Positions 51,045 to 57,393 of a stretch of 64,000 bases of DNA are shown in pieces (positions within the stretch are counted from its first letter, which is position 1; each line of letters starts with the position of its first letter). The notes beneath the pieces are model-generated. The model saw only the letters and a program-made list of their open reading frames with translations. It was not told where the DNA came from and searched no databases. The position numbers were made by a program, and so were the translations under genes. Source of the DNA: Escherichia coli (GTDB lineage Bacteria; Pseudomonadota; Gammaproteobacteria; Enterobacterales; Enterobacteriaceae); the NCBI RefSeq assembly GCF_050920415.1, contig NZ_CP169309.1; one strand, written 5' to 3'.

Positions 51045-51929
51045 TCAATCATGTATTTTTACAGCAAGACAACCACGAACAAACTTAGGATTAAAATGTT
51101 TTACCGATTCCCCAACATAACCCAAATCAAGCGAACTAATTTGCGCCATTTCTTTCTCTGTCAGTGAGAAATCCCAAATAGCAAAATTTTCTTCGATACG
51201 CTGTTGATGTGTCGATTTCGGAATAACGACCACTCCCCGTTGAATATTCCAACGCAGAATGACCTGAGAAATCGATTTTTGATGGGCATCTGCAATATTC
51301 TGAAGCAGACTATTTTCAAAGGGTTTATGTCTTCCACCGCCTAACGGAGCCCATGCTTCAGGCTGCACGTTATAATACTTCATGGTTGCCAGCGCCTCTG
51401 GTTGGGCAAAATAGGGATGCAACTCGACCTGGTTGACCATCGGTTTAACTCTTACCGTTTCACAAAAGTTTGCCAGAACATGAGGGTAGAAATTGGAAAC
51501 CCCAATCGCTTTTAATTTGCCCTCTTCATAGGCATCTTCGAGTGCACGCCACGCACTGAAATAATCGCGCATAGCCTGGTGCAATAAATAGAGGTCGAAG
51601 TATTCTAGTCCCGATTTTTTTAATGACGCTTCAATACCTGCTTTTGCCGTATCCTGATTCAACATATCCTGTACCCACAATTTAGACGTTATAAATAACT
51701 CATCTCGGGTACATAAACCTTCAGATATAGCTTCACGAACGGCTTCACCGACGGCATCTTCATTACCGTATACCGCTGCAGTGTCGATGAGTCGATAACC
51801 CGTGCGGATAGCATTCAACACTGACTGTTTGCACACGTCTTTATCGGTAACCTGAAAAACACCAAATCCCATCATCGGCATTTTCAGATTGTTACTTAAT
51901 ACGGAAAATTCCACTGTCAGTCCCTCCAT
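51045..51929 (-). CDS. Aldo-keto reductase (NADPH-dependent oxidoreductase)
   Basis: AKR family signatures (…MPMMGFGVFQV…, …LIDTAAVYGNE…, …IPKSTHQQRIEENF…); exact start uncertain, longest ORF given; may correspond to the K-12 ykgQ remnant. Confidence 0.75.
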   Translation of the reverse strand: MEGLTVEFSVLSNNLKMPMMGFGVFQVTDKDVCKQSVLNAIRTGYRLIDTAAVYGNEDAVGEAVREAISEGLCTRDELFITSKLWVQDMLNQDTAKAGIEASLKKSGLEYFDLYLLHQAMRDYFSAWRALEDAYEEGKLKAIGVSNFYPHVLANFCETVRVKPMVNQVELHPYFAQPEALATMKYYNVQPEAWAPLGGGRHKPFENSLLQNIADAHQKSISQVILRWNIQRGVVVIPKSTHQQRIEENFAIWDFSLTEKEMAQISSLDLGYVGESVKHFNPKFVRGCLAVKIHD

Positions 51930-52161
51930 TAGGTATGAACAATGAGTCTACGTTAAAACGTAACCTCAAATTAGTATGTGGATTTTGATATCACTTATGC
52001 AAAAAATTCATTAATAATGTAGGACTGAAACCTCTCTATTTTTGGGGCAATGAAGCAGACGCTATCAGTGCTTTTGCCTTGGGACTTGCTGTTTTTGATA
52101 CACTTAGGGCCCAGGACATAACGAAAATGTGCGATATGACAAAGAATTAACGGTGAATGTG

Positions 52162-56100: not shown

Positions 56101-57393
56101 CGCATAATAATTGTCTTTGCCTGGACGGTAAGCCGGGAGCGTTACTTGCCACTGACTACCCTGACCGGTAATTTTGCCACCTTCAGCCAGTAATGACGGC
56201 GCTTCCCACTGCACATTTTTCAGTCCGTGAGTTGCTTTGCTGACCACAAGCCCCAGGGAAACCGTCTGACCGCCCTTGCCTTCAATACGCTCAGGCAGAG
56301 CAATACGGATCACTTCAGATTTGCGGTACTCAAGAACGATGTTGTTATTACGCTCAACCAGGTCATAGCGGCTGCCTGCCAGCATTCGACGCTCGCGAAT
56401 GCTGTCTGTATCGAGTTGTTTTTGCAGAGGTTCGCCAATTCGGTAGTTAACTTCCAGGCCAAAGCGAGTGTCATTCTCACCACTCTTGCCCTGCTTATGC
56501 CCGGCGCTCAGTGTCAGAAGAGGCACTGGTGTATAGGTTACCTCGGCAGAAATAGCATGCGGGTCTTTCTGGCGTTTATCTTTACCAAACAGCCCGACTT
56601 CATCGCCATAATACTGCTCATACATCAGGCTTGCGCCAAGCTGCGGCCAGGCAGGTAAATAGCCCTCAGCACGAATATCCCAGCCATTCGCCGGGCGTTC
56701 CTGATAATCCTCAACATCCGGCGATTTTTTCCAGCCAGAAGCCCGGATATAACCATTGGCGCTCAGTTTCAAATAATCACGCCAGTATTCCGCACCAACA
56801 CCAATGCGGGTATGACTACGGGATAAATCATGATCGATAAAAGTATTCACCCCCGCCATCCAGTCATTTCCTGAAAAATGACGCCAGCCAAAACCAATAT
56901 TTGACTGAGTACGATCGTCGGTACGATGTATTGCCCCCTGAGTGAACAACATATTTGTCGGCGTGTCATAAATCGGATAAAGCATTTCCAGCGAAGAATC
57001 CTTCAGCGAGAAATCTTTATCGACATTCAGTTTGACGCGCGCTGTACCATATTTCCCGAGCCACTCCTGTATTTCCTGGTTAGCTTTAGCGGTGGCCATT
57101 CCGGTAATAAAGTTACGTGTCGCATCGCTATCTGGCTGACTGCTTAAAAATGTCCCGGCATTTGCGGCAAACGACGCGACATTTTTCTCCACATTATTAT
57201 CAGCAGCTACCGTGGTATTTTCCATGCTCAACCGTGGCTGAACCGCATGCTGCGCGCGTGCTGCCATTACTGGGGTAAAGGTGACAGCGAGTGGGAAAAG
57301 AACCTGAACAGAGATATTTGCCCACGCCACGCAGCGGGCCAGAACTGAATAACGAAATCGTGGTTGTTTATGACCTGTTTTATAACGTGACAT
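53140..57393 (-). CDS. fdeC: Intimin/invasin-family adhesin FdeC (EaeH), intact, 1417 aa
   Basis: N-terminal intimin-type outer-membrane barrel region followed by many Big (bacterial Ig-like) repeats; length matches FdeC. Confidence 0.85.
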   Translation of the reverse strand: MSRYKTGHKQPRFRYSVLARCVAWANISVQVLFPLAVTFTPVMAARAQHAVQPRLSMENTTVAADNNVEKNVASFAANAGTFLSSQPDSDATRNFITGMATAKANQEIQEWLGKYGTARVKLNVDKDFSLKDSSLEMLYPIYDTPTNMLFTQGAIHRTDDRTQSNIGFGWRHFSGNDWMAGVNTFIDHDLSRSHTRIGVGAEYWRDYLKLSANGYIRASGWKKSPDVEDYQERPANGWDIRAEGYLPAWPQLGASLMYEQYYGDEVGLFGKDKRQKDPHAISAEVTYTPVPLLTLSAGHKQGKSGENDTRFGLEVNYRIGEPLQKQLDTDSIRERRMLAGSRYDLVERNNNIVLEYRKSEVIRIALPERIEGKGGQTVSLGLVVSKATHGLKNVQWEAPSLLAEGGKITGQGSQWQVTLPAYRPGKDNYYAISAVAYDNKGNASKRVQTEVVISGAGMSADRTALTLDGQSSIQMLANGNEQKPLVLSLRDAEGQPVTGMKDQIKTELTFKPAGNIVTRTLKATKSQAKPTLGEFTETEAGVYQSVFTTGTQSGEVTITVSVDDMSKTVTAELRATMMDVANSTLSANEPSGDVVADGQQAYTLTLTAVDSEGNPVTGEASRLRLVPQDTNGVTVGAISEIKPGVYSATVSSTRAGNVVVRAFSEQYQLGTLQQTLKFVAGPLDAAHSSITLNPDKPVVGGTVTAIWTAKDANDNPVTGLNPDAPSLSGAAAAGSTASGWTNNGDGTWTAQITLGSTAGELEVMPKLNGQDAAANAAKVTVVADALSSGQSTVSVAADRVKAGESTTVTLIAKDAHGNAISGLSLSASLTGTASEGATVSSWTEKGDGSYVATLTTGGKTGELRVMPLFNGQPAATEAAQLTVIAGEMSSANSTLVADNKAPVVKTTTELTFTVKDAYGNPVTGLKPDAPVFSGAASTGSERPSAGSWTEQSNGVYVATLTLGSAAGQLSVMPRVNGQNAVAQPLMLNVAGDASRAVISDMAVKVNNQLANGQSANQVTLTVVDSYGNPLQGQEVTLTLPQGVTSKTGNTVTTNAAGKADIELISTVAGELEIAAAVKNSQKTVTVKFNADASTGQANLQVDTAAQKVANGKDAFTLTATVEDKNGNPVPGTLVTFNLPRGVKPLTGDNVWVKANDEGKAELQVVSVTAGTYEITASAGNNQPSDAKSITFVADKTTATISSIEVIGNRAVADGKAKQTYKVTVTDANNNLLKDSEVTLTASPASLNLEPNGTATTNEQGQAIFTATTTVAAKYTLTAQVSQDNGQVSTKTAESSFVADDKNAVLTATSDMESLVADGESTATLKVTLMSANNPVGGNMWVDIQTPEGVTEKDYQFLPSKNDHFVSGKITRTFSTSKPGVYTFTFNALTYGGYEMKPVTVTITAVDANTATGEEAMK

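What the first reader, a model, noticed from the sequence alone, without database searches (positions are those of the whole stretch)
51045..57393. Intact fdeC/eaeH adhesin, ykgA regulator and aldo-keto reductase where K-12 carries disrupted remnants
The 1417-aa intimin-like adhesin, the Rob-like ykgA and the AKR are all full-length, and no IS3 copy lies between fdeC and ykgA. This looks like the ancestral, functional form of a locus that is broken in K-12. FdeC is a described adhesin in pathogenic E. coli.
Basis: partly seen in the sequence, partly recalled or inferred. Interest (0 to 1): 0.4.

Follow-up and report, generated by a model that had tools for sequence, protein, structure and literature searches.

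The report
Intact E. coli fdeC adhesin locus
This is the ordinary, full-length version of the E. coli fdeC adhesin gene with its two neighbours; most E. coli carry it, and its truncation in the laboratory strain K-12 was published in 2012.

Summary
Three uninterrupted genes lie at 51045-57393: an aldo-keto reductase (AKR, minus strand), the Rob-like regulator ykgA (plus strand) and the 1417-aa inverse-autotransporter adhesin fdeC (minus strand). Only 120 bp and a hairpin separate ykgA from fdeC, and there is no IS. Alignment with K-12 shows that K-12 lacks window 52823-56517, where it has IS3 instead, and most of the AKR.

This is not new. Nesta et al. 2012 (PMC3324786) already describe fdeC as a pseudogene in K-12 and full-length elsewhere. 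Of 5426 complete E. coli genomes, 4490 hold at least 80% of the 6.9-kb stretch.

Two corrections apply:
- The AKR loss is a common polymorphism (about 2100 genomes), not a K-12 peculiarity.
- The window is not the fullest form of the locus. It lacks 6.3 kb (six genes) just upstream of fdeC, as K-12 does.

One new lead came up. ykgA and fdeC travel together as a convergent pair in unrelated genomic contexts (Salmonella, other Escherichia), and E. marmotae has an empty site. The pair carries an invariant marbox-like promoter element and a conserved hairpin-rich leader. No paper in the searched library links ykgA to fdeC.

Verdict: confirmed, already known, low interest.

The parts
51045..51929 (-). 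Aldo-keto reductase (AKR1). The longest ORF is 294 aa from the ATG; the start used by NCBI annotation for the same gene is GTG 51914 (289 aa).
   Evidence: Pfam Aldo_ket_red covers residues 28-267. The best solved relative is 1VP5, a 2,5-diketo-D-gluconate reductase, E 2.4e-84. The Asp49/Tyr54/Lys83/His117 tetrad was read directly from the sequence. The NCBIfam DkgA equivalog scores 235 bits against a cut-off of 425, so it is not DkgA itself.
51930..52161 (.). Divergent intergenic region between AKR1 and ykgA. Its left 88 bp are shared with E. marmotae; the rest belongs to the ykgA-fdeC insert. It holds the inverted-repeat arm 51995-52015.
52162..53019 (+). ykgA, an AraC/XylS-family regulator with the Rob architecture (285 aa; the longest ORF starts at GTG 52129).
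   Evidence: Pfam HTH_18 plus GyrI-like. It aligns end to end with Rob (7VWY/1D5Y, E about 3e-39). The RobA equivalog scores 194 bits against a cut-off of 380, so it is a paralogue, not Rob.
53074..53106 (.). Perfect 14-bp-stem hairpin between the convergent ykgA and fdeC genes; probably a bidirectional terminator.
   Evidence: repeat I11.
53140..57393 (-). fdeC (eaeH), an inverse-autotransporter adhesin of 1417 aa: signal/N-terminal region, IAT beta-barrel 76-350, about ten Ig-like domains, no C-terminal lectin domain detected.
   Evidence: Residues 595-1008 match the FdeC crystal structure 4E9L (E 5e-245). It is 92-99% identical to annotated FdeC of five other E. coli strains, including O157:H7 and the ExPEC strain PMV-1.
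57394..57581 (-). Putative fdeC 5' leader (about 190 nt). Conserved hairpins: HP1 57481-57504; HP2 57467-57480 followed by U5 at 57462-57466 (terminator-like); HP3 57431-57454. The 35 nt before the ATG are almost invariant across lineages.
   Evidence: (z = -4.88). The transcript start is inferred from the -10 box and has not been mapped.
57582..57625 (-). Putative fdeC promoter: a perfect TATAAT (57587-57582) and a marbox-like 20-mer (57625-57606) centred near -40.5.
   Evidence: one mismatch to AYnGCACnnWnnRYYAAAY. It is invariant in E. coli, E. whittamii, the E69-type lineage, Salmonella and L016. Homology with Salmonella and L016 ends at 57625-57628.
57857..57877 (.). Right arm of the 21-nt inverted repeat that brackets the ykgA-fdeC insert (left arm 51995-52015). 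Both arms are also present at the empty site in E. marmotae.
   Evidence: (repeat I2).
57943..58034 (+). Scar of a 6.3-kb deletion (junction 57943/57944) and the last 92 nt of an NADH-dependent flavin oxidoreductase gene.
   Evidence: window 57001-57943 matches 042 L007 13006-13949, and 57943-60000 matches L007 20279-22336. The oxidoreductase CDS in L007 is 19228-20370. The same remnant is annotated as a partial CDS in K-12, N96 and MFDS1022581.

Best explanation
The region is the common, intact chromosomal fdeC locus of Escherichia coli, and it holds three genes.
- fdeC encodes an inverse autotransporter. An N-terminal beta-barrel sits in the outer membrane and exports a rod of about ten Ig-like domains. 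In published work on other strains this rod binds collagen and epithelial cells and promotes aggregation and biofilm.
- ykgA encodes a Rob-type regulator: a MarA-like DNA-binding domain plus a GyrI-like ligand-binding domain. Its targets are unknown.
- The aldo-keto reductase is an NAD(P)H-dependent carbonyl reductase of the DkgA/YvgN type.

K-12 differs because of two separate, derived events. The first is an older deletion of most of the reductase, which K-12 shares with many other strains. The second is an IS3-associated deletion that removed the ykgA 3' end and the 3' 3.4 kb of fdeC.

Shown here: gene integrity, domain content, the K-12 breakpoints and the population frequencies. Inferred: that the genes are expressed and active in this strain.
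For: - The ORFs are intact and no frameshift appears in codon-level comparison with up to five other strains per gene.
- The domains and structural homologues fit.
- K-12 breakpoints: IS3 replaces window 52823-56517 with no shared flanking 3-bp duplication. The AKR is deleted at 51174-51264 (the junction lies in a 9-bp direct repeat, TGAGAAATC) and at 51314-51898.
- Frequencies among 5426 complete genomes, at 80% coverage or more: the whole 6.9 kb in 4490, the AKR in 2933, ykgA in 4637, fdeC in 4585.
- The same gene order with all three genes intact occurs in O157:H7, PMV-1, 042, N96 and 2020CK-00188.
- The exact proteins are already public, on 71-99 contigs each.
- Published: fdeC is a pseudogene in K-12, is present in about 99% of ExPEC, binds collagen, and is protective as a vaccine antigen (PMC3324786). 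FdeC has 10 Big domains and its assembly is helped by TAM (PMC4943183).
Against: Nothing contradicts the identification. Activity is not shown. The cited literature describes fdeC as tightly controlled: expression is triggered by host-cell contact (PMC4943183), regulation by H-NS and temperature is stated in a paper title only, and LmiA represses it indirectly (PMC11657066). An intact ORF therefore does not mean the protein is made under laboratory conditions. The fdeC allele here is uncommon; only 1 of 5426 genomes is 99% identical or better, and its binding properties are untested. The locus is not complete on the far side of fdeC.
Confidence: 0.95

Rival explanations
1. ykgA and fdeC are a dedicated regulator-adhesin pair. 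It is a two-gene module that moves or is inherited as a unit. In this model YkgA (or its paralogues MarA/SoxS/Rob) activates fdeC from a class-II marbox promoter, and a structured leader adds a second, post-initiation control. This extends the main explanation rather than replacing it.
For: - YkgA homologues of 65-87% identity lie tail-to-tail with an FdeC-like gene in four settings besides E. coli.
  - An Escherichia lineage (L013/L014) whose leader is nearly identical to that of E. whittamii (L024), at the same site between the two AKR genes.
  - Salmonella enterica CP191473.1, between a hipA-like gene and an amylase gene. DNA homology there is limited to window 52159-57628.
  - Contig L016 with unrelated flanks.
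  - The E69-type lineage L029, with YkgA at 82% and a 1627-aa FdeC at 69% identity.
- E. marmotae has the two AKR genes 250 bp apart with neither ykgA nor fdeC.
- The marbox-like box and the -10 are invariant in all lineages while the sequence upstream is unrelated.
- The box is centred near -40.5, the class II position (the micF soxbox is at -41.5, PMC9638938).
- Leader hairpins are 98% paired, with one compensatory change in each helix.
Against: - The genes are convergent, so co-inheritance could simply reflect adjacency in a small insert.
- One 64% homologue (L021) and three of four homologues at 42-47% identity have no inverse autotransporter nearby.
- YkgA's first recognition helix differs from the MarA/SoxS/Rob helix that reads GCAC (SKWHLQRMF in Rob against SRRNIQLLF; SoxS contacts W36 and R40). 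A canonical marbox may therefore be read by MarA/SoxS/Rob rather than by YkgA.
- Most helix pairs never vary, so the covariation evidence is thin (3 pairs; 5 of 500 shuffles reach the score).
- The transcription start is not mapped.
Confidence: 0.4
2. The reductase, ykgA and fdeC form one functional unit, with YkgA sensing a carbonyl compound and controlling the divergently transcribed reductase.
For: The AKR and ykgA are divergent, with a 232-bp shared control region. This is a frequent layout for a regulator and its target. The GyrI-like domain suggests a small-molecule ligand.
Against: - The AKR exists without ykgA in E. marmotae, paired instead with its inverted paralogue AKR2 (45% aa identity).
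- ykgA exists without the AKR in Salmonella, L016 and about 2100 E. coli genomes.
- The Salmonella homology starts 3 nt before the ykgA ATG, so the AKR-ykgA control region is not part of the conserved unit.
Confidence: 0.1
3. Despite intact reading frames, one or more of the genes is silent or inactive in this strain, making it a cryptic locus.
For: In the cited literature fdeC expression is conditional: it is triggered by host-cell contact (PMC4943183) and indirectly repressed by LmiA. The region upstream of fdeC is AT-rich, about 40% GC. The closest complete genome has ykgA cut by IS2, which shows that loss is tolerated.
Against: No inactivating change appears in any gene. The AKR catalytic tetrad, the beta-barrel and all Ig domains are present. 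The promoter and leader are conserved. Conditional expression is regulation, not decay.
Confidence: 0.1

Closest known systems
FdeC (ECOK1_0290) of ExPEC IHE3034, also called EaeH of ETEC H10407
   Same: Same gene at the same chromosomal site, with the same length (1416-1417 aa) and architecture. Residues 595-1008 match the FdeC crystal structure 4E9L at E 5e-245. It is 92% identical to FdeC of the ExPEC strain PMV-1 and 94% to that of O157:H7.
   Different: Only the allele differs. Differences concentrate in the distal Ig domains 6-9 and the C-terminal tail: 76-80% identity to PMV-1 in Ig7 and Ig9, against 98% or more in the barrel. Only one of 5426 complete genomes has this allele at 99% identity or better.
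Intimin (Eae) and Yersinia invasin
   Same: An inverse-autotransporter beta-barrel (matches 4E1S and 4E1T, E 1e-70 to 1e-82) followed by Ig-like domains.
   Different: No LysM domain and no C-terminal C-type-lectin receptor-binding domain was detected by Pfam. There are about ten Ig domains rather than four or five. The NCBIfam intimin model scores 387 bits against a cut-off of 1400.
Rob (right-origin-binding protein) and the MarA/SoxS family
   Same: Same two-domain layout and the same length. It aligns with Rob over residues 5-283. The second recognition helix is conserved.
   Different: It falls below the RobA equivalog cut-off (194 against 380 bits). The first recognition helix is changed (W to R and R to L at DNA-contacting positions). 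The targets of YkgA were stated to be unidentified in 2007 (PMC2064960), and no later paper in the library identifies any.
DkgA/YvgN-type aldo-keto reductases
   Same: Same fold family, the catalytic Asp-Tyr-Lys-His tetrad, and about 280-290 aa.
   Different: It falls below the DkgA and DkgB equivalog cut-offs (235 against 425 and 164 against 327 bits). The substrate is unknown.
K-12 eaeH'-IS3-ykgA' remnant (b0297-b0300)
   Same: Orthologous DNA. The retained parts are 95-97% identical. The 292-aa K-12 EaeH fragment is identical to the window protein at 288 of 292 positions.
   Different: K-12 lacks window 52823-56517 and most of the AKR, and carries IS3.

Membership tests
FdeC / inverse autotransporter adhesins | N-terminal inverse-autotransporter beta-barrel domain | tested here: met
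   Pfam IAT_beta covers residues 76-350, E 6e-109. Matches the invasin and intimin barrels 4E1T and 4E1S.
FdeC / inverse autotransporter adhesins | C-terminal passenger made of tandem bacterial Ig-like (Big_1 / Invasin_D3) domains, about ten in FdeC | tested here: met
   Nine Pfam-delimited repeats between 474 and 1404, plus an intimin D00-like match at 358-466. PMC4943183 states 10 Big domains.
FdeC / inverse autotransporter adhesins | Orthology with characterised FdeC: full-length identity and the same chromosomal neighbourhood | tested here: met
   92-99% aa identity over the full length to genes annotated fdeC between ykgA and ykgR in other strains. Matches the 4E9L fragment at E 5e-245.
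FdeC / inverse autotransporter adhesins | Surface display and adhesion to collagen or epithelial cells | not testable with these tools
   Known only from experiments on other strains (PMC3324786).
Rob (RobA equivalog) | AraC-type double HTH plus a C-terminal GyrI-like domain | tested here: met
   Pfam HTH_18 38-117 and GyrI-like 138-294 in the 296-aa ORF.
Rob (RobA equivalog) | Score above the curated equivalog cut-off | tested here: not met
   NF012228 scores 194 bits against a cut-off of 380; NF011701 scores 174 against 426. YkgA is a paralogue with the Rob layout, not Rob.
Rob (RobA equivalog) | Marbox-reading residues of recognition helix 3 (W, Q, R) | tested here: not met
   Rob has SKWHLQRMF and YkgA has SRRNIQLLF in the alignment; only the Q is kept. 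Helix 6 (QQ.F.R) is kept.
Aldo-keto reductase superfamily | Aldo_ket_red domain with the Asp-Tyr-Lys-His catalytic tetrad | tested here: met
   Pfam E 8.6e-42. D49, Y54, K83 and H117 were read from the sequence and lie in blocks aligned with 1VP5.
Aldo-keto reductase superfamily | Identity with the named enzymes DkgA or DkgB | tested here: not met
   Below both equivalog cut-offs.
Class II mar/sox/rob promoter (candidate, for fdeC) | Marbox consensus AYnGCACnnWnnRYYAAAYn overlapping the -35 region, centred near -41.5 | tested here: inconclusive
   One mismatch in the 19 positions searched. The 20-mer lies 18 bp before a perfect TATAAT and is centred near -40.5 if the start is 7 nt after the -10. 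It is invariant in five lineages. The start site and activator binding are not known.

The most novel reading that the evidence does not exclude
ykgA and fdeC are an ancient two-gene regulator-adhesin cassette. It was inserted between two divergent reductase genes in an Escherichia ancestor and is also found in other genomic contexts. fdeC would be switched on from a class II marbox-type promoter by YkgA (a ligand-sensing Rob paralogue) or by MarA/SoxS/Rob. A conserved leader with a terminator-like hairpin would then gate it. This would give YkgA, an orphan member of the MarA/SoxS/Rob family, its first target. It would also explain why FdeC appears only on host contact.
Probability: 0.35. Interest if true: 0.45.

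Novelty: already known. Interest (0 to 1): 0.15.

Why it matters
As given, the finding matters little. It re-identifies a well-studied, nearly universal E. coli adhesin locus and repeats a K-12 comparison published in 2012. Its practical use is for annotation: all three genes can be labelled intact, and the locus state can be recorded as AKR1 present, ykgA present, fdeC present and the 6.3-kb reductase/LysR block absent.

The side result could be worth a small experiment. FdeC is a vaccine antigen whose expression signal is unknown, and YkgA is the one MarA/SoxS/Rob-family regulator of E. coli without a known target. K-12, where that family was mostly studied, has a truncated ykgA. Conserved pairing of the two genes, together with a conserved marbox-like promoter, makes a direct regulatory link cheaply testable.

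Tried and rejected
- Rfam at gathering thresholds over 47000-61000 gave no match, so the leader is not a described RNA family.
- The generic promoter and terminator scan found no more sites than in shuffled sequence (10 against 10.9, and 6 against 6.8). Only the two hairpins later supported by conservation were kept.
- The 21-nt inverted repeat bracketing the ykgA-fdeC insert was considered as the ends of a mobile element. This was rejected because both arms are present at the empty site in E. marmotae. They lie upstream of the paralogous, divergent AKR1 and AKR2 genes, so they fit better as a relic of an inverted duplication.
- A leader peptide starting at the upstream ATG (57428) was considered. 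It was rejected because that frame runs on for more than 50 codons into fdeC in a different frame.
- A metagenome scan with a pattern specific for the Salmonella/L016-type leader found nothing.
- The second metagenome scan returned 50 loci, almost all ordinary E. coli, and added one divergent lineage.
- The genome scan with a leader 21-mer hit only three species representatives, so the module is rare outside Escherichia.
- Easton et al. 2014 (H-NS and temperature control of fdeC) could not be read because it is not held.
- Literature searches for ykgA with fdeC, AraC, marbox or SoxS/Rob found no paper that links the two genes.
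Full report
**1. What is in the sequence**

- 51045-51929 (-), 294 aa
- 52129-53019 (+), 296 aa
- 53140-57393 (-), 1417 aa

The flanking genes are rclR, rclA, rclB and rclC on the left and ykgR, ykgM, ykgO, ykgL and ecpR on the right. This follows from the gene order of strain N96, which is 99.2% identical over 20 kb. NCBI's annotation of the same genes in other strains uses slightly shorter starts: GTG 51914 for the reductase (289 aa) and ATG 52162 for ykgA (285 aa). Codon-level comparison with up to five other strains per gene shows no internal stops and no frameshifts.

**2. What the genes are**

The reductase has a full Aldo_ket_red domain. It carries the Asp49/Tyr54/Lys83/His117 tetrad. 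Its nearest solved relative is a 2,5-diketo-D-gluconate reductase (1VP5, E 2e-84). It falls below the curated DkgA and DkgB cut-offs.

YkgA has an AraC-type double helix-turn-helix and a GyrI-like domain. It aligns with Rob from end to end. It scores only half the RobA equivalog cut-off, so 'Rob-like' is right and 'Rob' would be wrong.

FdeC has an inverse-autotransporter barrel (residues 76-350) followed by about ten Ig-like domains. Residues 595-1008 match the crystal structure of the FdeC fragment 4E9L at E 5e-245.

The 120 bp between the convergent ykgA and fdeC genes hold a perfect 14-bp-stem hairpin (53074-53106) and no insertion sequence.

**3. Comparison with K-12**

In a K-12 derivative the annotation reads as follows:
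- a reductase remnant of 129 nt
- ykgA missing its C-terminus (654 nt)
- IS3
- an 876-nt N-terminal fragment of the autotransporter

Nucleotide alignment shows that K-12 lacks window 52823-56517, where IS3 sits. The IS is not flanked by a target duplication, as expected for an IS-associated deletion.

The reductase was lost in two pieces, 51174-51264 and 51314-51898. The first junction lies in a 9-bp direct repeat, TGAGAAATC.

These remnants prove that the K-12 state derives from the state seen in the window.

**4. How common it is, and whether it is new**

Counts among 5426 complete E. coli genomes:

| Stretch | Genomes holding at least 80% of it |
|---|---|
| Whole 6.9-kb stretch | 4490 |
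| fdeC | 4585 |
| ykgA | 4637 |
| Reductase (AKR) | 2933 |

About 2100 genomes carry the same two-piece reductase remnant as K-12. Some of them, such as strain XH988, still have intact ykgA and fdeC. The reductase deletion is therefore an old, widespread polymorphism, unrelated to the IS3 event.

All three exact protein sequences are already public.

Nesta et al. [quoted passage not shown] The finding is therefore already known.

**5. The locus is not in its fullest state**

E. coli 042 and PMV-1 carry six more genes between fdeC and ykgR: two aldo-keto reductases, two LysR regulators, an alpha/beta hydrolase and an NADH-dependent flavin oxidoreductase.

The window has a clean junction at 57943/57944 that removes 6329 bp. 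It keeps only the last 92 nt of the oxidoreductase gene. This is the same scar as in K-12, N96 and MFDS1022581.

The six-gene block is present, at 80% coverage or more, in 1787 of 5426 genomes. 'Ancestral form' therefore holds for the three genes named, but not for the locus as a whole.

**6. Allele**

This fdeC allele is uncommon. One complete genome (MFDS1022581) is identical, 416 are 95-99% identical and 4644 are 90-95% identical. The flanking genes, by contrast, are 97-98% identical to most strains.

Differences concentrate in Ig domains 6-9 and the C-terminal tail. The barrel is 98% identical or more. This fits the subtype variation already described (PMC4943183).

In the identical strain, ykgA is cut by IS2 with a 5-bp target duplication at window 52417-52421.

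**7. A lead that goes beyond the finding: ykgA and fdeC travel together**

E. marmotae has the reductase directly back-to-back with the second reductase, 250 bp apart. It has no ykgA and no fdeC. Relative to it, E. coli carries a 5.8-kb insert, roughly window 52018-57855.

YkgA homologues of 65-87% identity lie tail-to-tail with an FdeC-like gene in four other settings:
- **An Escherichia lineage (L013/L014).** Its leader is nearly identical to that of E. whittamii (L024). The pair sits at the same site between the two AKR genes.
- **A Salmonella enterica chromosome.** The pair lies between unrelated genes. DNA homology to the window runs only from 52159 to 57628.
- **Contig L016.** Its flanks are unrelated, and its fdeC is shortened.
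- **An 'E69-type' lineage (L029).** YkgA is 82% identical, and the FdeC-like protein has 1627 aa.

There are exceptions. One 64% homologue sits among IS elements without an adhesin gene. Of four homologues at 42-47% identity, only a Siccibacter plasmid copy has an inverse autotransporter nearby.

The reductase is therefore a neighbour by insertion, while ykgA and fdeC behave as a unit.

**8. Promoter and leader**

The right-hand end of the homology with Salmonella and L016 falls at 57625-57628. This is exactly the upstream edge of a marbox-like 20-mer (57625-57606). The box has one mismatch to AYnGCACnnWnnRYYAAAY. It lies 18 bp before a perfect TATAAT (57587-57582).

Both elements are invariant in every lineage examined, while the sequence further upstream is unrelated.

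If transcription starts 7 nt after the -10, the box is centred near -40.5. That is the class II position reported for the micF soxbox, -41.5 (PMC9638938).

The roughly 190-nt leader folds far better than shuffled sequence (z = -4.88). It contains three hairpins kept in all lineages. The second is followed by five U and looks like a terminator.

On a nine-sequence alignment, 98% of cells pair, against 35-60% when partners are slid by one to three columns. Each helix has one compensatory change. Most pairs never vary, however, and 5 of 500 shuffles reach the covariation score. I rate the structure as likely, but its regulatory role as unproven.

YkgA keeps the second recognition helix of the family but not the first. 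The box could therefore equally be read by MarA, SoxS or Rob.

No paper in the searched library links ykgA to fdeC. In 2007 the targets of YkgA were stated to be unidentified (PMC2064960).

**9. Verdict**

- Novelty: already known.
- Interest: low.
- The only part that might repay work is the inferred ykgA-fdeC regulatory module, which I put at about 0.35-0.4 probability and moderate interest.

Noticed in passing
window 57943-58034: Scar of a 6.3-kb deletion about 550 bp upstream of fdeC. Six genes present in E. coli 042 and PMV-1 are missing (two AKRs, two LysR regulators, an alpha/beta hydrolase, an NADH flavin oxidoreductase). Only the last 92 nt of the oxidoreductase remain. K-12 has the same scar. 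The block is present in 1787 of 5426 genomes.
   Followed up: yes
window 51174-51264 and 51314-51898: The K-12-type loss of the reductase is two deletions, the first flanked by a 9-bp direct repeat (TGAGAAATC). About 2100 complete E. coli genomes share it, including strains with intact ykgA and fdeC. It is therefore independent of the IS3 event.
   Followed up: yes
window 52417-52421: The only complete genome with an identical fdeC allele (MFDS1022581) has IS2 inserted in ykgA here, with a 5-bp target duplication. It also has an integrase-bearing island in place of rclR and rclA.
   Followed up: partly
window about 52018-57855; loci L010, L013, L015, L016, L029: ykgA plus fdeC behave as a 5.8-kb two-gene insert. 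E. marmotae has an empty site. E. whittamii has the pair at the same site. The pair also lies in unrelated contexts in one Salmonella enterica chromosome and in contig L016. It is also present in an E69-type Escherichia lineage whose flanks were not fully resolved.
   Followed up: partly
window 57582-57625 (minus strand): A marbox-like 20-mer (TTTGCACAAAAAGCTAAATT) lies 18 bp upstream of a perfect TATAAT. Both are invariant across five lineages, and homology ends at the upstream edge of the box. It is a candidate class II MarA/SoxS/Rob/YkgA-dependent promoter of fdeC.
   Followed up: partly
window 57394-57581 (minus strand): A conserved, strongly folding fdeC leader (z = -4.88) with three hairpins. 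HP2 (57467-57480) plus U5 looks like an intrinsic terminator or attenuator. The 35 nt before the ATG are almost invariant even in Salmonella. There is no Rfam match.
   Followed up: partly
window 51995-52015 and 57857-57877: A 21-nt inverted repeat (18 of 21 complementary) brackets the ykgA-fdeC insert. Both arms are also present 46 bp apart in E. marmotae. It is probably a relic of the inverted duplication that produced AKR1 and AKR2 (45% aa identity), not the ends of a mobile element.
   Followed up: yes
window 53140-54400 (distal Ig domains of fdeC): Allelic divergence of fdeC is concentrated in Ig domains 6-9 and the C-terminal tail (down to 76-80% identity to an ExPEC allele), while the barrel is 98% or more. 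Differences from strain N96 cluster in Ig5-Ig6, which suggests recombination within the gene.
   Followed up: partly
L013/L014 3390-7606; L010 9001-11079: In the E. whittamii-like lineage (L013/L014), ykgE is followed directly by the reductase, with no rclRABC. In E. marmotae an alcohol dehydrogenase gene sits on that side. The reactive-chlorine operon therefore seems to be another insertion at this variable spot in E. coli.
   Followed up: no
L029 2394-7277: An FdeC-like protein of 1627 aa in an E69-type Escherichia lineage. It is about 90% identical over the first 900 residues, then diverges and is about 210 aa longer, with extra Ig repeats. No match covers 80% or more of the locus in the 5426 complete RefSeq E. 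coli genomes.
   Followed up: partly
L019 1500-7873: On a Siccibacter turicensis plasmid contig (IncFII RepA, TraI), a YkgA-like regulator (44% identity) lies downstream of a LysM-containing inverse-autotransporter barrel gene and a separate Ig-domain gene. This may be a distant version of the same pairing.
   Followed up: no
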